DNA of 64,000 nucleotides from Escherichia phage AV117. Location: the sequence record OR352947.1; one strand, given 5' to 3'. Made by a program: the position numbers and the translations under genes. Of the stretch, positions 1,801-35,478 are shown one piece after another. The notes beneath the pieces were generated by a model that worked only from the letters and a program-made list of their open reading frames with translations, did not search any database and had not been told where the DNA came from. How positions within the stretch are numbered: position 1 is the first letter of the stretch; each line of letters opens with the position of its first letter.

Positions 1801-2202
1801 TTATAGATTCGGTTTATATGATTTAAATGTTTCGAATTCGCCTTTATTCATAAGAGCTTTGAATTCGTCAGGACGCATAGCTTTGTCGTCGATAATCCAA
1901 TCATATACTGGTTTATGTGTTAGCAAATTATGGTACTTCAATCCAATGTTTGCCAAGTTCTGAATCAGACTTGGGAGAATGTCAATTGCTATACGACCAG
2001 GACCGACTGACTTCATACCGCGAGCAGTGTAAAGCGTTATGGTATGCCCTGCATCATACAGGGCATTAATGGCAGACACCATTTCGACGTCTGGTTTGAA
2101 GTTCACGTAATCACGATTGTTATTCCACTCTGTTATACAATCATCGACATCAAAACAAAGATTAAGCATGTTTTCTACACGGTGCATTAGATTCGTTCCC
2201 AT
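1801..2202 (-). CDS. HAD-superfamily phosphatase (small, KdsC-like)
   Basis: 133 aa; HAD motif I LCFDVDDCIT near N-terminus and C-terminal WIIDDK acidic motif; start overlaps 3' end of upstream kinase/NTase gene. Confidence 0.6.
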   Translation of the reverse strand: MGTNLMHRVENMLNLCFDVDDCITEWNNNRDYVNFKPDVEMVSAINALYDAGHTITLYTARGMKSVGPGRIAIDILPSLIQNLANIGLKYHNLLTHKPVYDWIIDDKAMRPDEFKALMNKGEFETFKSYKPNL

Positions 2203-3872
2203 TGATGAGTGATATCGCCACCGATTGGACGATAAGAAACACCGGTTTCTTTATCAGTTAGTACCCATTTACCAGGATTTTTTGTAATCAGAGTAGCCGT
2301 TACAGGTTCTGCTACGTCATAACTAATAGAGCCGTCCTGAAGTACACGGCCCATGTTACGTAATTGCTTAGTCAGAAGTTCCATACCTTTATAATATGCG
2401 GCTACCGCTTTAAGTGGATTATTCTTGAAATAACCACCTAATGCAATCCAGATAATTGCCGCTGCCAAATGATGATACTCGTTAAACGAACTCATCTTTC
2501 CATATTTGTAAACTAATGGATTGATGTTAATAGACACATTACAAGTTGTTTCATCGATAGTAAACTGTCCCCAGGTCGGATTAGCATTGAATTCATCATA
2601 ACCTGAAACAGCGTAAAGCACTTTAGCTTCATCATACAATTTTGGGCCGTAAATCTTGGTTTCGCCAAAATATCCACGAGGGTCGATAAACTTGACTTCG
2701 CCGTTATCAGTAATCATAGTATTACTGAAGTTCGGGTCACCATGAATAACAGAGTACTGTCCCTGAGAACGGTTATGATAACGAATAAGGTGTTCTAAAG
2801 CTTGTTTCAGCATTGGTTTCAGACGCCCAATCTTAGTGTAGTTCACATGTGTGATTTTACCAAATGAATCAATCAATGGTTGAATACTTTCACAACGATC
2901 AATGACTTTAGTATAGAATTCTTTAGTGAAATCACGACGAACAGTTTCAGGACTTACAAAATAAGTGTCTGTGCTGAATTTCAGTGCGTCTAAAATTGCA
3001 TCAACAATTTGTGGACGAGCAAGACTCGATTTGGATTTAATATATTCAAATGCTGGCTTACCTTTAATGCGTTCCATTTCAAAGTTATTTTCATTAACAG
3101 AAACTAACTGAGGAACTGAATCTGATTTCACTTTAAGATACCATGAAATCTCATCTTTCTGAAGAGCTCGACCCTGTTCGGTTAATGCGAATTTAGTTAC
3201 AGTTTCTTCACCAATTTCAACTGCATTAAAACTACGATTAAGTTCACGAACTTCATGAGCTTTTTCAAGTTTAGGCATATCACCTAAATCAATTAGATTC
3301 ATAAGCTCTGATTTATTGAATGCGCTGCCGTAAAGGAATTCTACGAAATCGCGTCCTTTGCAGTATTCATGAATTTCCTCATCAGTAGAACCCATATAGA
3401 ATTCCCAGTCTTTGAACTGATAAATTCCTACAACATTACCACCTGTTGAACCTACGTTAGTGATATTTTCACCGTCGAAATTATATCGACATTCGTCACC
3501 CTTAACATAGATTGCGTTAACATTCCAAGACCATGAACCAAAATCAGGAATAATATCACACCAGTTAACAATTACATTATGGCCGTCTAAATCTTTGTGC
3601 AATTTAGCAAGAGCATAAGCAGAACCATACGCTTCATCAACTGTACGAATAGTCACATTGAACCCTTCTTGCTCACAATAAGCTCGAACAGTTTCAGCAA
3701 ATTTTGAATGAACTACTACAATAATTTCATCTGCGCCAAGGTCAGAATAAATTGTATACAAATTGCTCAGAATAGTGTCTTGTTTATAATTAACAAGCAC
3801 CTTAGGAATATGATGCGTTATTGGATACAAACGAGTTGCCAGTCCAGCACCAAGAATAACAGCTTTTTTCAT
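2187..3872 (-). CDS. bifunctional sugar nucleotidyltransferase / sugar 1-kinase (NDP-sugar synthesis)
   Basis: 561 aa; N-terminal MKKAVILGAGLATRLYPIT is the GxGxR NTP-transferase signature (RmlA/GlmU-like); C-terminal HGDPNFSN and DPRGYFG resemble the catalytic loop of APH/choline-kinase-like kinases. Confidence 0.75.
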   Translation of the reverse strand: MKKAVILGAGLATRLYPITHHIPKVLVNYKQDTILSNLYTIYSDLGADEIIVVVHSKFAETVRAYCEQEGFNVTIRTVDEAYGSAYALAKLHKDLDGHNVIVNWCDIIPDFGSWSWNVNAIYVKGDECRYNFDGENITNVGSTGGNVVGIYQFKDWEFYMGSTDEEIHEYCKGRDFVEFLYGSAFNKSELMNLIDLGDMPKLEKAHEVRELNRSFNAVEIGEETVTKFALTEQGRALQKDEISWYLKVKSDSVPQLVSVNENNFEMERIKGKPAFEYIKSKSSLARPQIVDAILDALKFSTDTYFVSPETVRRDFTKEFYTKVIDRCESIQPLIDSFGKITHVNYTKIGRLKPMLKQALEHLIRYHNRSQGQYSVIHGDPNFSNTMITDNGEVKFIDPRGYFGETKIYGPKLYDEAKVLYAVSGYDEFNANPTWGQFTIDETTCNVSININPLVYKYGKMSSFNEYHHLAAAIIWIALGGYFKNNPLKAVAAYYKGMELLTKQLRNMGRVLQDGSISYDVAEPVTATLITKNPGKWVLTDKETGVSYRPIGGDITHQWERI

Positions 3873-3913
3873 GTTGTGGTCCTCATTGGTAAGTAGGAGT
3901 ATTGTACACTATT

Positions 3914-4057
3914 CTAGTTAAAGCATTCATACTTTGCTTGTAGTCCAATCATAATCCATCCGATTATAAGAGTCGGAACCATTACTGGAGCCGTTAAGCT
4001 CCAGTAGATAGTCATGACAAGCATCAATAGTAAAAGTCCTATTGTTATTGCTTTCAT
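3914..4057 (-). CDS. small hydrophobic membrane peptide (47 aa)
   Basis: ATG overlaps stop of upstream SIS gene (ATGA); MKAITIGLLLLMLVMTIYWSLTAPVMVPTLIIGWIMIGLQAKYECFN, two hydrophobic segments; below ORF-track size cutoff. Confidence 0.4.
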   Translation of the reverse strand: MKAITIGLLLLMLVMTIYWSLTAPVMVPTLIIGWIMIGLQAKYECFN

Positions 4058-4689
4058 TGTTCGCCTCGTAACATGGCACCTAGTGCACCGCCAGGGTGGA
4101 ACTTAAGGAAGTCATTAGAGGTAAATCCACGCTCAGACGAAAGGTTGATAGCAAACGTATCGATAAGCGCTAACAACAATGTAGTGGACATAGTCGGAGC
4201 CAGAGAATTCTCATCAACCTCTACTGCGATGCCTGTACAGAAAGAGTAATCAAAAAGGGCTTCATTTTCTTGTGGAATGTCTGGGTTACAATGCAACAGA
4301 ATCTGTTTGACGTTAGGACGAATCATTTTAAGATGCTTAGCCACGCCTATCATTTCTTCAGTTTTACCAGAACGACTAATATGAATCAACACATCATTAG
4401 GCGCAATGAATCCTGCATCACCGTGAGAATAATGCCCAGTGTTCAAGTACATACTCGGGATACCGAGTGAAGCAAATGTCTCAGAAGCTTTAGTTGCAAT
4501 ATTAGCATTCTTACCAACACCCGTAATAATTACTCGGCTTTCATAATTACTAAGTCCAGGGCGTCGAAGAGTTTCTAGAATAGCATTATAACGAGCAGGG
4601 TTTTGACTAATTACTTTGGCCATAGCGGCCAAAGAAGAAGCTTGTTTTATGATTGCGTCAATAGCGATAGTAATAGGAGTAGTTTTCAT
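4054..4689 (-). CDS. SIS-domain D-arabinose-5-phosphate isomerase (KdsD/KpsF-type, no CBS domains)
   Basis: 211 aa; ITGVGKNANIATK and LIHISRSGKTEE SIS motifs; C-terminal APTMSTT...RGFTSNDF...HPGGALG matches KdsD SIS domain. Confidence 0.8.
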   Translation of the reverse strand: MKTTPITIAIDAIIKQASSLAAMAKVISQNPARYNAILETLRRPGLSNYESRVIITGVGKNANIATKASETFASLGIPSMYLNTGHYSHGDAGFIAPNDVLIHISRSGKTEEMIGVAKHLKMIRPNVKQILLHCNPDIPQENEALFDYSFCTGIAVEVDENSLAPTMSTTLLLALIDTFAINLSSERGFTSNDFLKFHPGGALGAMLRGEQ

Positions 4690-4729
4690 ATTTCTCTCAT
4701 TTAATTAGTTTACCGTCCATGACATTATA

Positions 4730-7441
4730 TCAAAAATCGAACATATCGAACAGAGATGCTTTCTTCTCGTAATCGAGTTTCGCTGCTGATGTGAATCCTT
4801 CAAGTGGTTTAATAAATGTCTTCTCAAGGAGAACAGTGTAGTCCATCCAATGAAGTACGTCGTCTTTAATTAAATCTGTGATTTCAGTACCAGAAGGCCA
4901 TGCGATACATTTATCACCGAATGGGTTTCCTTCACGTAAAGGCAGAACATATACTTTTTCACCTTCTACAACTTGCGGTGCATCGATATTACCTTTGATA
5001 GCCCGGTTATACGTCAGAATTCCACGAATATGGAATGGACATTTAGGACCAGGGAATCCACCTACATCATATTTAGCAATGTTATTCGCAGAAGATACCG
5101 ACGCGATGCTAATATAATTCAATTGACGGAATTCTTTTTCAAACTCTTTAAAATATTCTTGTAATGATTCTTCACCTTCTTGAAGCATACGACGAATACA
5201 TTCTTTAAGAGCTTTCTGTACTGCTTTAGGAGTCGAAGATTTCTGAGTCTCTAGACCCATGATTTTGAGTTTAGGCTCAGCGTAACGAGTACCTTCCATA
5301 TCCCACACGTTTAATGCATAACGTTTCTTACCAGTCCAGAATCCGCCAATACCTTTAGAACCAAGCGGAGGCCCAGCGATAGCTTCTCGGTCCATGAACA
5401 TTAAGTGTTGTTTATTGTTCATGTATTCACACATTTCACGGAAACCTCTATCAATAGCTGGTTCCATACGTTCACGTGCAAACTTATCTAAGAAGTCTAC
5501 CCAATGGTTGGTATCACGGAATTTAGATTCACCAACCTTATCGATAATTTTATCAGCAGATACGTAAATAGAGTCTGTATCACCGTAAAGAACGAAAGCT
5601 TCACCTTCTGTGCCACAAACTTCATTCAGATATTCATTAACTTTACGTTCAATCCACTGTAAAGCCATTTGACCAAATGTTGTGATTGCAGTAGCATTAC
5701 GCAAATCATAATAACGGAACCAAACGTTTCCAAGTGCACCATAAAGTGAGTTGATAAGCAATTTACGGTTAATTTGGGCAGTCATACCTGCAACTTCAGT
5801 ACGTTGAGCTCTAAACAACATTTCATTAAGAGATTTAGCAGACAACTTTTTAATCTTTTCTTTAATCTCATCACTGAAGTCGAAACGATAATCAACATCT
5901 AATGGTTCGTCAACAGAAAGATTAGGATTATGCAATGCCTCTTTAATTATTTCACCATTACGTTGAGCTGCAAGCATGTAACCTTTATGTTCTTTACGTT
6001 GATTAAAGACCTTAGTGATTTCGGTTGGAACTACACCGTCACGGTCTTTATAATACATCATGCCGTTAGGAGAACAACTGTACACATCAGAAGGACGCTC
6101 AGCGATTGCGTTAATATAATCATGCAGTGGAGCTACTTTAAACGTTCCTGCTATTGTTTCTGGGCTAATATTCACTTGGCGAATAATACTTGGATACAGA
6201 GATGTAAGGTCGAAACTCATTACATATTTGTATCGATTTGGAATAGGTTCCTTAACAAAAGCGCCAGGATAAGGTTGAACCGGGTGAGAACGACCTTGTG
6301 GAATCACCTTGTTCTGCTCTTTAAGGCTATTAAAAATAATAGCATCCCATGTTTTAATTGGACTAAACACAGATTGAATCTGTATCTTAGCATAATAACC
6401 CATGTCCAAGCTCAAGTTAATGAACTGACGTTTACCATCAATTTGCAATACACGATACACGTCGATAATGTTATAAGAAATATATCGTTGGTGATTGCTT
6501 TCACGAAGCTTAGAAATAGGGCCGTCATATTTCAGTTTACCAACGTTCAATTCAAATTCTGAAATGTAATCCAGAGAATATGATGGTTGATTGGTAAAAG
6601 AGAATTTTTTGTAAAGGTCAATGTAATCAAGAACAGAGATACCGAACAATGTAATGATTTCACGAGAACCATACATGTTTTCGATAACTTTAACACGAGT
6701 TTTACGATGTGGTGACAACCGTTTTGCTGTGGATTCGCCAAAAATATTCTTGATTCGGTTATACACATATGGAATATCAAATGACTCAACGTTCCATCCA
6801 GTCAAAATGACAGGAGTTTTCTGTTGCCAGAAGTTGAGATATTCCATCAACAATTCTTTTTCGTTATCGAACGGCATATAAATGATTTTATCGATAATTT
6901 CGGATGGAACTTCATCACCACCTTGTTCTTGAAGCTTAGCCGCAATTTCGATAGACCATTCTTCTACATTACCATATGGAGAATTCAATAGATCAAATAC
7001 GTAGAACCTGTCGTCAATTGAGTCATAATGGGTGATAGCATCAATCGGATGTTTTGCTTGTGACGGCTCAGGGAACCCGTCCGGAGATGTTACTTCGATG
7101 TCGAAGTTAGCCACACGAATTTTTGTATGGTCGTATTTGATTTCATAGTTATAAGTGTCAGACAAATACGCTAATTTGAAATCGTCCATGCCAAGTGCTT
7201 CAAGTCCGATATCTTCCATGCGTTTAATCCATTGGGAGGCATCACGCATATTGGCGAACAACTTACGAGTACACGGCTTACCGTAGATATCGAAATATTT
7301 CGTAGCCTGACTTTCTGGACAATGAGCAAACAGTGATGGTTTATATTCTACTTCACGAGTACGTTCACGGCCATTAGAATCGATGTAACGTTCAAAAATT
7401 GAATCACCAATCTGTTCAACCGTTAAGTAAAATTCTTTCAT
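4730..7441 (-). CDS. 43: DNA polymerase gp43 (family B with 3'-5' exonuclease)
   Basis: 903 aa; exo motifs FDIEV and YNIIDV, pol motifs DLTSLYPSII, KLLINSLYGALG, YGDTDS; sequence reads as RB69-type gp43. Confidence 0.97.
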   Translation of the reverse strand: MKEFYLTVEQIGDSIFERYIDSNGRERTREVEYKPSLFAHCPESQATKYFDIYGKPCTRKLFANMRDASQWIKRMEDIGLEALGMDDFKLAYLSDTYNYEIKYDHTKIRVANFDIEVTSPDGFPEPSQAKHPIDAITHYDSIDDRFYVFDLLNSPYGNVEEWSIEIAAKLQEQGGDEVPSEIIDKIIYMPFDNEKELLMEYLNFWQQKTPVILTGWNVESFDIPYVYNRIKNIFGESTAKRLSPHRKTRVKVIENMYGSREIITLFGISVLDYIDLYKKFSFTNQPSYSLDYISEFELNVGKLKYDGPISKLRESNHQRYISYNIIDVYRVLQIDGKRQFINLSLDMGYYAKIQIQSVFSPIKTWDAIIFNSLKEQNKVIPQGRSHPVQPYPGAFVKEPIPNRYKYVMSFDLTSLYPSIIRQVNISPETIAGTFKVAPLHDYINAIAERPSDVYSCSPNGMMYYKDRDGVVPTEITKVFNQRKEHKGYMLAAQRNGEIIKEALHNPNLSVDEPLDVDYRFDFSDEIKEKIKKLSAKSLNEMLFRAQRTEVAGMTAQINRKLLINSLYGALGNVWFRYYDLRNATAITTFGQMALQWIERKVNEYLNEVCGTEGEAFVLYGDTDSIYVSADKIIDKVGESKFRDTNHWVDFLDKFARERMEPAIDRGFREMCEYMNNKQHLMFMDREAIAGPPLGSKGIGGFWTGKKRYALNVWDMEGTRYAEPKLKIMGLETQKSSTPKAVQKALKECIRRMLQEGEESLQEYFKEFEKEFRQLNYISIASVSSANNIAKYDVGGFPGPKCPFHIRGILTYNRAIKGNIDAPQVVEGEKVYVLPLREGNPFGDKCIAWPSGTEITDLIKDDVLHWMDYTVLLEKTFIKPLEGFTSAAKLDYEKKASLFDMFDF

Positions 7442-33540: not shown

Positions 33541-33723
33541 TTATAGTGAATTCACGTAGTCAATGAGTTCTTGTTCTTTCCTGTCAAATGATTCCAACAA
33601 TGCTTGATATTCTTCATCTGTTAAAGGAGCATATTCATCGTACGCATTGGTGGCTGCTTGCTCATCCAATAGGTCATGGATAAGTTCGAACAGTTTAGCT
33701 TTCTCTTCTTTAGTTAATTTCAT
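33541..33723 (-). CDS. hypothetical protein
   Basis: 60 aa acidic ORF. Confidence 0.4.
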   Translation of the reverse strand: MKLTKEEKAKLFELIHDLLDEQAATNAYDEYAPLTDEEYQALLESFDRKEQELIDYVNSL

Positions 33724-33947
33724 TTAGGTTCACCTTCTTTAACGAAATCCGGGTAAGGGTAAAATCCTGAGTAAAACCCTTCACCTTTATGATTGCTACA
33801 ACCTTTGTTCGAACAGTAACACCAATAATCAAAATCACAAGCCATTTCGTCATTGCATAAAGCAAAAACTACAGGCCATTCGCATTTTTCGCATTTAGCA
33901 CCTGTAAGAATTTTTGTTTGACTCATAGCCATGTCACCTTTAAGCAA
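33720..33947 (-). CDS. hypothetical Cys-rich protein
   Basis: 75 aa with CEKCEW...C...C..C..C pattern. Confidence 0.45.
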   Translation of the reverse strand: MLKGDMAMSQTKILTGAKCEKCEWPVVFALCNDEMACDFDYWCYCSNKGCSNHKGEGFYSGFYPYPDFVKEGEPK

Positions 33948-34150
33948 TATTCTTCTATATGTTGTTTACGGCCTTTCTTATCAATAAAGGTATATTCAAC
34001 GAATGTTCCGATGTAGTCTTTATCTACATCATGTGGACTATTAATTGGACATTTGGTACGACAAATGCGTTCCCATTGACGAATAATTACTGCCTTATTC
34101 TTTGGGTCATATGGATGTGGATAATGTATATTCATAATAATGGTTCCCAA
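33923..34150 (-). CDS. hypothetical protein
   Basis: 75 aa ORF. Confidence 0.45.
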   Translation of the reverse strand: MGTIIMNIHYPHPYDPKNKAVIIRQWERICRTKCPINSPHDVDKDYIGTFVEYTFIDKKGRKQHIEEYCLKVTWL

Positions 34151-34629
34151 TCAACAATCACAATTTCTAGTTTAGTGGAATACGTATCTAAAATCTCTTC
34201 GATGACATCCCAGTTTCCACCACCAATACCTGCACCAATTCTTGGCATATAAATTACAGGCTTTGTTATCTTATTCTTTCCGAATTCATTTAATTCTATT
34301 ATACAATTCATTAAAGCAGAGTACTCAAAATTAGGTCCCGGCTCAAACTGTGTATAAAGATTAAAGCAATAAGCTTTATGGGTCTTAAAATATTTTTCAT
34401 AAACCGAATAAGTCCCGAGTTTAGACTCGTCTCCAAATTCGGTTTGAAGTTTATCGGCTTCCAGAATTTTTGGATAAGCCTTTGCTAATTGTCCTGCCAC
34501 GCCAGCGCCCATTGTATGAAAACAATTACACCCATGAGCGATATTATTACCTTTAGAAAACAGGGCGACAATATCGCCCTTGATATAGTTTTTAATCACT
34601 TGCTGCAAGTCCTCTATTATAAGAGTCAA
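34132..34629 (-). CDS. macro-domain-like protein (ADP-ribose binding/processing fold)
   Basis: 165 aa; glycine-rich HGCNCFHTMGAGVAGQLAKAYP and RIGAGIGGGNWD loops typical of macro domains. Confidence 0.55.
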   Translation of the reverse strand: MTLIIEDLQQVIKNYIKGDIVALFSKGNNIAHGCNCFHTMGAGVAGQLAKAYPKILEADKLQTEFGDESKLGTYSVYEKYFKTHKAYCFNLYTQFEPGPNFEYSALMNCIIELNEFGKNKITKPVIYMPRIGAGIGGGNWDVIEEILDTYSTKLEIVIVDWEPLL

Positions 34630-34939
34630 CTAGACGGTCCACCATAGAATTGCATGCTGCCTTATCTTTAGGTTCCGCCACCGAGCATTCTAATATTTGC
34701 CATTTTTTATAGTATCTTTTAATTAAGGTAGACGCCTTGAACCTACTAGACGCCCCATCTTTTTCTCCGTCTTTATACGCATATAACAATTTTTGTGAAA
34801 AATCTACTTTACACTCTTGACTTTTACCACAATAATCAGACGCTGTTCTGTTTGTATACTCCGTTACATCAGTATATGTAGTATTAGCAAGAGCGTTAAA
34901 TGAAACCAAGCCAACTATTAAAGCCAACATTTTGGTCAT
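34592..34939 (-). CDS. hypothetical secreted protein (vs position)
   Basis: 115 aa; signal-like MTKMLALIVGLVSFNALA; four Cys. Confidence 0.5.
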   Translation of the reverse strand: MTKMLALIVGLVSFNALANTTYTDVTEYTNRTASDYCGKSQECKVDFSQKLLYAYKDGEKDGASSRFKASTLIKRYYKKWQILECSVAEPKDKAACNSMVDRLVDSYNRGLAASD

Positions 34940-35478
34940 TCTTTTATTTCCAGTAGTTTGTTTGATTTAAGGTAATTAGCCTTTTCTAGGACTTCAGAAG
35001 CATATTTACTTCCAGCACTTGTCTTCCATCCCGCATTATATGAGGATATAGCTTTTCTTATATCCCCGTTATGTATATTTAACCAATAAGAAAATTCGAT
35101 ATAAGCCCATCTGGCTGAATTAGACCGCTTAGATAGCATTTTCTTAATTTGGGCATCAGACATATTATAACCAAGCTGGTTAATTCTTGCCCTCATTGTT
35201 GGTAGATAATTTTGGAACATTCCATACGCATGGTGACCTTTCTTATCTTTAAGATTAATACCGGCAGATGATTCCTGCCATAGTATTGCGGCCATTATGT
35301 ATCCAAGTCCTTTCTTATGCATATTTTCATGCGTTTTAAATTTTCCGTCCTTAGAAAACTGTTCCCCAAACTGATAAGCATAATTCAAGTTATCGAGTTG
35401 GACATTACTAAAAGTATGCTCGGAGCTATGTGCTGATAATGAAAGAGCAAATAGACCAGCGAGTAGTGCTTTTCTCAT
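34936..35478 (-). CDS. periplasmic lytic transglycosylase-like protein (SLT domain)
   Basis: 180 aa; signal peptide; ILWQESSAG catalytic Glu-Ser motif, AYGMFQ, YNAG. Confidence 0.6.
   Translation of the reverse strand: MRKALLAGLFALSLSAHSSEHTFSNVQLDNLNYAYQFGEQFSKDGKFKTHENMHKKGLGYIMAAILWQESSAGINLKDKKGHHAYGMFQNYLPTMRARINQLGYNMSDAQIKKMLSKRSNSARWAYIEFSYWLNIHNGDIRKAISSYNAGWKTSAGSKYASEVLEKANYLKSNKLLEIKE

What the first reader, a model, noticed from the sequence alone, without database searches (positions are those of the whole stretch)
34132..34629. Macro-domain-like protein between tk and regB
Two glycine-rich loops (HTMGAGVAG and RIGAGIGGGNWD) match the ADP-ribose-binding signature of macro domains. 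Such a protein could reverse ADP-ribosylation or degrade ADP-ribose-derived immune signals.
Basis: partly seen in the sequence, partly recalled or inferred. Interest (0 to 1): 0.55.

Follow-up and report, generated by a model that had tools for sequence, protein, structure and literature searches.

The report
Phage macrodomain Tk.4/AdfM orthologue
This is a real ADP-ribose-handling macro-domain gene in a T4-like phage, but it is the already annotated counterpart of phage T4 gene tk.4 (adfM), which a 2025 preprint showed T4 needs to resist the bacterial DNA-ADP-ribosylating defence DarTG2.

Summary

The window comes from an RB69-like Mosigvirus. The protein is 84% identical over its full length to T4 Tk.4 and sits in the same tk-tk.1-tk.2-tk.3-tk.4-vs-vs.1-regB order. 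Hundreds of phage records already call it 'macro domain protein' or 'phosphatase'.

A 2025 preprint (HIDEN-SEQ) found that deleting tk.4 makes T4 sensitive to DarTG2, and renamed it adfM. The most likely function is therefore removal of DarT2-installed ADP-ribose from thymidines in phage DNA.

Two points are worth recording:
- **No catalytic lysine.** The family has an invariant Gln where DarG and TARG1 have their catalytic Lys. The bacterial dT-ADPr hydrolase SCO6735 also has an essential Gln there.
- **Closer to a phosphatase family.** By sequence it is nearer (37% identity) to the phage ADPR-1''-phosphate phosphatase Adpp than to DarG. No biochemistry exists for Tk.4.

Verdict: correct reading, already known, low interest.

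The parts
34132..34599 (-). tk.4/adfM orthologue: macro-domain protein, 155 aa from GTG
   Evidence: Pfam Macro above its cut-off. 84% identical to T4 Tk.4 over 155 aa. Annotated at these limits in Mosigvirus relatives. Start-codon argument.
34600..34629 (-). 10-codon extension to the upstream TTG, probably not translated; lies within the 3' end of vs
   Evidence: T4 has an in-frame stop at the equivalent position. Homology to T4 starts at residue 11 of the 165-aa ORF.
34522..34539 (-). AHGCNC motif (H22, N25, C26; invariant in the family)
   Evidence: Invariant columns in the 40-sequence alignment. N25 aligns with DarG and PhiKZ-AdfM N23 and with SCO6735 N27. H22 aligns with Poa1p H23, TARG1 H32 and SCO6735 H24.
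34492..34518 (-). Glycine-rich loop 1, HTMGAGVAG
   Evidence: Read from the sequence. G33 and A35 are invariant. Aligns with MGKGIA of DarG and MGAGIA of TARG1.
34348..34362 (-). NLYTQ strand; Q84 occupies the position of the catalytic Lys of DarG (K80) and TARG1 (K84)
   Evidence: N80, Y82 and Q84 are invariant. Alignment. SCO6735 has an essential Gln85 at this position (PMC9411070).
34207..34242 (-). Glycine-rich loop 2 (diphosphate-binding), RIGAGIGGGNWD
   Evidence: P119, I121, G122, G124 and W130 are invariant. Aligned directly with PRIGCGLAGGTW of SCO6735 and PRIGCGLAGGKW of BT1257.
34592..34939 (-). vs (valyl-tRNA synthetase modifier), upstream gene; its stop overlaps the tk.4 start by 8 nt
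33923..34135 (-). tk.3, downstream gene; ATGA overlap with the tk.4 stop

Best explanation
The gene is the Mosigvirus orthologue of T4 tk.4, renamed adfM (anti-DarT factor, macrodomain). It encodes a stand-alone 155-aa macro domain of the ALC1/TARG1-like class. It is made from the leftward pre-replicative gene block regB-vs.1-vs-tk.4-tk.3-tk.2-tk.1-tk, and its ends overlap vs and tk.3.

Its most likely job is to protect replicating phage DNA from the host DarTG2 toxin-antitoxin defence. DarT2 attaches ADP-ribose to thymidines in single-stranded DNA and blocks replication. The phage macro domain binds the ADP-ribose through its two glycine-rich loops and hydrolyses the ribose-thymine bond, acting as an orphan DarG-like antitoxin.

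It lacks the catalytic lysine of DarG and TARG1. The chemistry is therefore more likely that proposed for SCO6735, where Gln84, held by Asn25, positions the distal ribose and a water-mediated mechanism does the cleavage.

**Shown:** macro fold, orthology, synteny and conserved active-site residues (this work), and the genetic requirement of T4 tk.4 for DarTG2 resistance (preprint).

**Inferred:** that this 84%-identical orthologue behaves the same way, and that the mechanism is enzymatic removal of ADP-ribose from DNA.
For: - **Orthology.** 84% identity and 94% similarity to T4 Tk.4 over all 155 residues, with no gaps.
- **Synteny.** The gene order is identical to T4 and to annotated Mosigvirus genomes. 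The regB-vs.1-(vs)-tk.4-tk neighbourhood is kept in about 42 IMG/VR relatives down to about 44% identity.
- **Genetics in T4.** tk.4 was the only significant HIDEN-SEQ hit on a DarTG2 host, and a clean knockout became DarTG2-sensitive (bioRxiv 10.1101/2025.11.20.689424).
- **DarG models.** The only NCBIfam and PADLOC models hit are DarG.
- **Active site.** The invariant residues H22, N25, Q84, G122 and G124 correspond to H24, N27, Q85, G126 and G128 of SCO6735. SCO6735 is a lysine-less ALC1-like macro domain shown to cleave dT-ADPr DNA and to protect against DarT (PMC9411070).
- **Precedent in phages.** A distantly related phage macro domain, PhiKZ gp104, has been shown biochemically to remove DarT2-made ADP-ribose from DNA (PMC13309987).
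- **Host range data.** A review lists RB69 (the type Mosigvirus) as a DarTG1 target and lists only T5 and SECphi18 for DarTG2 (PMC9967889).
Against: - No biochemistry exists for T4 Tk.4 or this orthologue. The preprint itself only says enzymatic removal 'seems likely'.
- The DarG and TARG1 catalytic Lys is absent; an invariant Gln84 takes its place.
- The SCO6735 lysines K34 and K89, which position the DNA, appear not to be conserved (A32 and G88 by offset).
- By sequence the protein is much closer to the NARP1-AP phosphatase Adpp (37% identity, E 8e-22) and to Poa1p and BT1257 than to DarG (about 1e-3) or PhiKZ AdfM (6e-4 over 23 aa).
- This particular phage has not been tested on DarTG2.
Confidence: 0.68

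Rival explanations
1. Its main activity is ADP-ribose-1''-phosphate phosphatase, as in yeast Poa1p and phage Adpp. It would clear ADPR-1''P made by RES-type NADases (aRES defence) or by the Tpt1/KptA RNA 2'-phosphotransferase. The DarTG2 phenotype in T4 would then be a side activity or an indirect effect.
For: - PHROG 335 and RefSeq name the family 'phosphatase'.
- Poa1p is among the best sequence and structure matches.
- The protein is 37% identical (E 8e-22) to the macro protein that sits between Adps and Namat in Vibrio phage Quinn. That arrangement is the NARP1-AP operon, whose Vibrio phage Gary member was shown to convert ADPR-1P to ADPR.
- It shares the AHxCNC, FNxYxQ and PxIGxGxxGGxWD motifs with that protein.
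- Equivalents of Poa1p H23 and S30 are present (H22, T29).
Against: - No Adps or Namat partner exists in the 64-kb window or within 5 kb of about 42 syntenic relatives. ADPR produced by the phosphatase could therefore not be rebuilt into NAD+ by the phage.
- The only genetic phenotype reported for tk.4 is against DarTG2.
Confidence: 0.12
2. It neutralises DarT2 mainly by binding the toxin (stoichiometric inhibition) rather than by hydrolysing modified DNA.
For: Catalytically dead SCO6735 (Q85A), DarG (K80A) and TARG1 (K84A) all still inhibit DarT in vitro, and SCO6735 does so most strongly (PMC9411070). The T4 data are genetic only.
Against: - Active-site residues are strictly conserved across a family with 41% mean column identity, which argues for catalysis.
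- The protein has no equivalent of the DarG C-terminal DarT-binding domain; it is 155 aa, against a 338-position DarG model.
Confidence: 0.08
3. It reverses protein or RNA ADP-ribosylation, either the phage's own (Alt, ModA, ModB) or that of other host transferases. Alternatively it degrades ADP-ribose-derived signalling molecules such as those of Thoeris.
For: Macro domains are promiscuous. SCO6735 and TARG1 also act on protein substrates. A comparative-genomics survey argued that phage macro domains mainly target soluble ADPr derivatives (PMC9503650). JGI annotates homologues as O-acetyl-ADP-ribose deacetylase.
Against: No experimental or contextual link was found. The neighbours are tk, vs and regB, not ART or TIR-related genes. 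Only the DarTG2 condition is described for tk.4 in the HIDEN-SEQ text, where every mention of tk.4 or AdfM concerns DarTG2.
Confidence: 0.07

Closest known systems
T4 Tk.4 = AdfM (NP_049723; HIDEN-SEQ preprint 2025)
   Same: 84% identical over the same 155 aa, with the same neighbours and the same overlapping junctions with vs and tk.3. All family-invariant residues are shared.
   Different: Different genus (Mosigvirus, not Tequatrovirus). The start codon is GTG rather than ATG. There are 25 substitutions, for example GIGGGNW here against GIGKGNW in T4. This orthologue has not been tested.
SCO6735 of Streptomyces coelicolor (PDB 5e3b), a lysine-less ALC1-like dT-ADPr DNA hydrolase
   Same: Gln at the position of the DarG/TARG1 catalytic Lys, plus the His, Asn and Gly-x-Gly equivalents (H22, N25, G122, G124). 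Sequence match E 6.6e-5 over nearly the full length.
   Different: Low identity (21% in Foldseek). K34 and K89 of SCO6735 appear to be replaced by A32 and G88. SCO6735 is a bacterial chromosomal gene, not a phage counter-defence.
DarG antitoxin macro domain (M. tuberculosis 5m3i, T. aquaticus 5m31) and PhiKZ gp104 'AdfM'
   Different: Gln84 in place of the FPTK lysine, and His22 where DarG has Asn. There is no C-terminal DarT-binding domain and no adjacent darT. NCBIfam DarG scores 31.9 bits against a cut-off of 250. The match to PhiKZ gp104 is only 23 aa at E 6e-4.
Adpp, the ADPR-1''P phosphatase of the phage NARP1-AP pathway (Vibrio phage Gary; orthologue in phage Quinn), and yeast Poa1p
   Same: Closest functionally characterised family by sequence (37% identity, E 8e-22). 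Shares the AHxCNC, NxYxQ and PxIGxGxxGGxWD motifs.
   Different: The gene is not embedded between Adps and Namat, and no NARP1 genes lie nearby. Adpp has an insertion after the Gln and carries MGRG instead of MGAG.

Membership tests
Macro domain (Pfam PF01661) | Score above the Pfam gathering cut-off across the whole domain | tested here: met
   28.1 bits against a cut-off of 22; profile positions 2-117 of 118
Macro domain (Pfam PF01661) | Three-layer alpha/beta/alpha macro fold | tested here: met
Macro domain (Pfam PF01661) | Two glycine-rich loops that bind the ADP-ribose diphosphate | tested here: met
   MGAGVAG and PRIGAGIGGG are present and nearly invariant. They align with the loops of DarG, TARG1 and SCO6735.
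Macro domain (Pfam PF01661) | Binds ADP-ribose | not testable with these tools
   Needs ITC, a thermal-shift assay or a co-crystal.
T4 Tk.4 / AdfM orthologous group | Full-length high identity to T4 Tk.4 | tested here: met
   130/155 identical, no gaps
T4 Tk.4 / AdfM orthologous group | Conserved position between vs and tk.3 in the regB-tk block | tested here: met
T4 Tk.4 / AdfM orthologous group | Required for growth on DarTG2-carrying hosts | not testable with these tools
   Shown only for T4.
DarG antitoxin (NCBIfam NF048014) | Score at or above the equivalog cut-off | tested here: not met
   31.9 bits against 250; only model positions 4-146 of 338 are matched
DarG antitoxin (NCBIfam NF048014) | Catalytic lysine (K80, FPTK motif) | tested here: not met
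   Gln84 (NLYTQ) aligns with K80; the Gln is invariant in the family
DarG antitoxin (NCBIfam NF048014) | C-terminal DarT-binding domain and an adjacent darT toxin gene | tested here: not met
   The protein is 155 aa and consists of the macro domain only. Its neighbours are vs and tk.3.
SCO6735-type (Gln-dependent) dT-ADPr hydrolases | Gln at the catalytic-Lys position, held by the conserved Asn; His and Gly-x-Gly present | tested here: met
   H22, N25, Q84, G122 and G124 correspond to H24, N27, Q85, G126 and G128. The Gly loop was aligned directly. The others follow by transitive alignment through DarG and TARG1.
SCO6735-type (Gln-dependent) dT-ADPr hydrolases | DNA-positioning lysines K34 and K89 | tested here: inconclusive
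   By residue offset these are A32 and G88 in the window protein. No direct alignment of those segments to 5e3b was obtained. PhiKZ AdfM also has MGAG yet is active.
Adpp (NARP1-AP ADPR-1''P phosphatase) | Homology to the NARP1-embedded macro protein | tested here: met
   37% identity, E 8e-22 to the Vibrio phage Quinn protein that lies between the Adps-like and Namat genes
Adpp (NARP1-AP ADPR-1''P phosphatase) | Encoded within or next to a NARP1 operon (Adps + Namat) | tested here: not met
   No tblastn hit better than E = 2 for Adps or Namat in the window. None within 5 kb in the syntenic relatives; one distant locus (L064) has a Namat-like gene.

The most novel reading that the evidence does not exclude
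The Tk.4 clade, the Adpp clade and BT1257 share a His-Asn-Gln active site. They may form one bifunctional family that both cleaves thymidine-linked ADP-ribose from DNA and dephosphorylates ADPR-1''P. A single small phage enzyme would then blunt two unrelated NAD+-based defences, DarTG2 and RES-type NADases. The T-even version would do this with a lysine-free, Gln-dependent mechanism distinct from DarG.
Probability: 0.2. Interest if true: 0.5.

Novelty: already known. Interest (0 to 1): 0.18.

Why it matters
The practical value is a better annotation. The gene should be labelled tk.4/adfM (anti-DarT2 macro domain) rather than 'phosphatase' or 'hypothetical', and its start should be set at GTG 34599.

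The one open scientific point is mechanism. The T-even AdfM family lacks the catalytic lysine of DarG and is closer in sequence to a proven ADPR-1''-phosphate phosphatase. Its real substrate range has therefore not been settled by experiment.

Tried and rejected
- **DarG membership rejected.** I first considered the protein a direct DarG homologue. It fails on the missing Lys, the missing C-terminal domain, the absent darT gene, and an NCBIfam score far below cut-off.
- **No NARP1 partner found.** I looked for Adps and Namat in the window and in 80 related IMG/VR loci, to test the Adpp reading. None turned up apart from one distant Namat-like hit in L064.
- **No dedicated promoter.** Sigma-70-like sites are not enriched around the gene: 11 found against 11.5 expected.
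- **The TTG start at 34629** was rejected in favour of GTG 34599.
- **Papers and alignments I could not get.** LeRoux et al. 2022 (PMC9250638), which has RB69/DarTG2 plating data, is not held. A review supplied only indirect information. A direct printed alignment of the N-terminal half with SCO6735 was not obtainable, because the tool prints only the top five alignments. Only the C-terminal loop was aligned directly.
- **CmdTAC paper** checked for a macro-domain link; nothing relevant.
- It contained the T4 sequence, so I re-ran it with a database homologue in its place.

Full report
**What is there.** The minus strand carries an ORF at 34132..34629, 165 aa counted from a TTG. HTMGAGVAG is encoded at 34492-34518 and RIGAGIGGGNWD at 34207-34242.

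Pfam's Macro model (PF01661) matches nearly end to end at 28.1 bits, above the curated cut-off of 22. PHROG 335, labelled 'phosphatase', matches at 7.7e-67. A sequence search of the PDB returns macro domains and designed proteins built on one:
- BT1257 at 6e-11
- yeast Poa1p at 1.5e-8
- SCO6735 at 6.6e-5
- TARG1 at about 1e-3
- DarG macro domains at 9e-4 and 6e-3

**Where the gene really starts.** The 165-aa ORF is the mechanical longest ORF. T4 Tk.4 is 155 aa, and T4 has a TAG stop in frame directly before its ATG. The window has GTG at the equivalent codon (34599). Both phages have the same GAGGA 11 nt upstream of it. Homology to T4-type proteins begins at residue 11 of the long ORF, and annotated Mosigvirus genomes use the 468-nt version. 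The ten extra codons lie inside vs.

With the GTG start, tk.4 overlaps the vs stop by 8 nt, and its own stop overlaps the tk.3 start in an ATGA. This is the tightly packed arrangement typical of T-even early regions.

**What genome and which gene.** The window is 97-99% identical to RB69/JS09-like phages of the genus Mosigvirus. The local order is tk, tk.1, tk.2, tk.3, the macro gene, vs, vs.1, regB, exactly as in T4. The protein is 84% identical (94% similar, no gaps) to T4 Tk.4.

RefSeq already describes T4 tk.4 as 'phosphatase; contains A1pp phosphatase motif'. Many of the 657 phage records that match this stretch label the gene 'macro domain protein' or 'phosphatase'. By tblastn, relatives occur in 2,799 phage records. 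Among the 80 best IMG/VR loci, about 42 share the regB-vs.1-tk.4-tk neighbourhood. These include every locus with more than about 50% identity and some down to about 44%.

**What is known about the orthologue.** A 2025 preprint (HIDEN-SEQ, bioRxiv 10.1101/2025.11.20.689424) screened a T4 transposon library on a DarTG2-expressing host. The single significant hit was tk.4. A clean deletion made T4 sensitive to DarTG2, and the authors renamed the gene adfM. They inferred, but did not show, that it removes ADP-ribose from DNA.

Independently, a Cell Reports 2026 paper gave the same name to PhiKZ gp104. That protein is a DarG-like macro domain, and the authors showed biochemically that it removes DarT2-made ADP-ribose from DNA (PMC13309987). 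A review lists RB69 as a target of DarTG1 and names only T5 and SECphi18 for DarTG2 (PMC9967889). That fits a working anti-DarT2 factor in this lineage, though it is indirect evidence.

**Mechanism: same job as DarG, probably not the same chemistry.** An alignment of 40 family members has these invariant residues: H22, G23, N25, C26, G33, A35, D49, G62, N80, Y82, Q84, P119, I121, G122, G124 and W130. I aligned the protein with DarG sequences taken from PDB alignments, with PhiKZ gp104 and with TARG1. Q84, in the NLYTQ strand, falls exactly where DarG has K80 (FPTK) and TARG1 has K84. The catalytic lysine that defines DarG and TARG1 chemistry is therefore absent.

This does not argue against DNA de-ADP-ribosylation. 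SCO6735 of Streptomyces coelicolor is an ALC1-like macro domain with Gln85 at that position. It cleaves thymidine-linked ADP-ribose and protects against DarT. It loses all activity in Q85A, and it also depends on N27 and G128; H24 was implicated too, but the H24Y mutant was misfolded (PMC9411070). The window protein has the matching H22, N25, Q84, G122 and G124. The Gly loop was aligned directly with the SCO6735 chain. The two lysines that position DNA in SCO6735 (K34, K89) seem to be A32 and G88 here. PhiKZ AdfM also carries MGAG and is active.

**The main rival.** By sequence, the closest functionally characterised family is neither DarG nor SCO6735. It is Adpp, the macro-domain ADPR-1''-phosphate phosphatase that extends the phage NAD+ reconstitution pathway NARP1 and defeats the aRES defence (bioRxiv 10.64898/2026.01.28.702374).

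Vibrio phage Quinn has a macro gene flanked by a ribose-phosphate pyrophosphokinase-like gene (Adps) and a nicotinamide phosphoribosyltransferase gene (Namat), which is the NARP1-AP arrangement. That protein is 37% identical to the window protein (E 8e-22) and shares the AHxCNC, NxYxQ and PxIGxGxxGGxWD motifs. For comparison, PhiKZ AdfM matches over only 23 residues at E 6e-4, and the NCBIfam DarG model gives 31.9 bits against a cut-off of 250.

Against the phosphatase reading for this gene, there is no Adps or Namat in the 64-kb window or within 5 kb of the syntenic relatives. ADPR released from ADPR-1''P could therefore not be rebuilt into NAD+ by the phage. The one phenotype known for tk.4 is against DarTG2. 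A dual-substrate enzyme remains possible and has not been tested.

**Verdict.** The macro-domain interpretation is correct, and the suggested role in reversing ADP-ribosylation matches the published genetics of the T4 orthologue. The gene is an ordinary, long-annotated member of the T-even core accessory set, and its function was assigned recently. The residual interest lies in mechanism: the Gln-for-Lys active site, the close kinship with Adpp, and the lack of biochemistry for the T-even protein.

Noticed in passing
window 34562-34580 (-), inside the first 40 nt of tk.4: An 8-bp GC-rich hairpin (AGGGCGATATTGTCGCCCT) followed by a T-run, flagged as terminator-like on the transcribed strand. 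It is identical in T4. Many relatives that encode KGD[IL][VI]AL keep it, some with paired changes (GGCGACTTGGTCGCC in L021, GGGCGATCTCATCGCCC in L045). Relatives with other residues there lack it. It could be an attenuator or an mRNA-stability element at the vs/tk.4 junction, or just a by-product of the GDIVA codons.
   Followed up: partly
window 34592-34939 (-) vs, and 34936-35478 (-) vs.1: Both proteins start with signal-peptide-like sequences (MTKMLALIVGLVSFNALA..., MRKALLAGLFALSLSAHS...). That is odd for Vs, which is annotated as a modifier of the cytoplasmic valyl-tRNA synthetase. The HIDEN-SEQ preprint reports vs as the most strongly depleted T4 gene in minimal medium.
   Followed up: no
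window 33720-33926 (-) tk.2: Small conserved protein rich in cysteines (CEKCEW...CNDEMAC...CYCSNKGCSNH), which looks like a zinc-binding module. It is annotated only as hypothetical in relatives.
   Followed up: no
L003 (Vibrio phage Quinn NC_055850) 2117-5123: A three-gene Adps-macro-Namat (NARP1-AP) operon in which the macro gene is annotated only as 'hypothetical protein'. It could be re-annotated as Adpp.
   Followed up: partly
L064 (IMGVR_UViG_3300046457_000084) 2806-4152: A 36%-identical Tk.4-family macro gene lies about 1 kb from a Namat/NadV-like gene (23% identical to Quinn Namat). No Adps-like hit was found. This may be a different NAD+-salvage linkage.
   Followed up: no
literature: Two groups have given the name AdfM to two only distantly related macro domains. 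T4 Tk.4 is the Gln type and close to Adpp and Poa1p. PhiKZ gp104 is the Lys type and DarG-like. This is a likely source of annotation confusion.
   Followed up: yes
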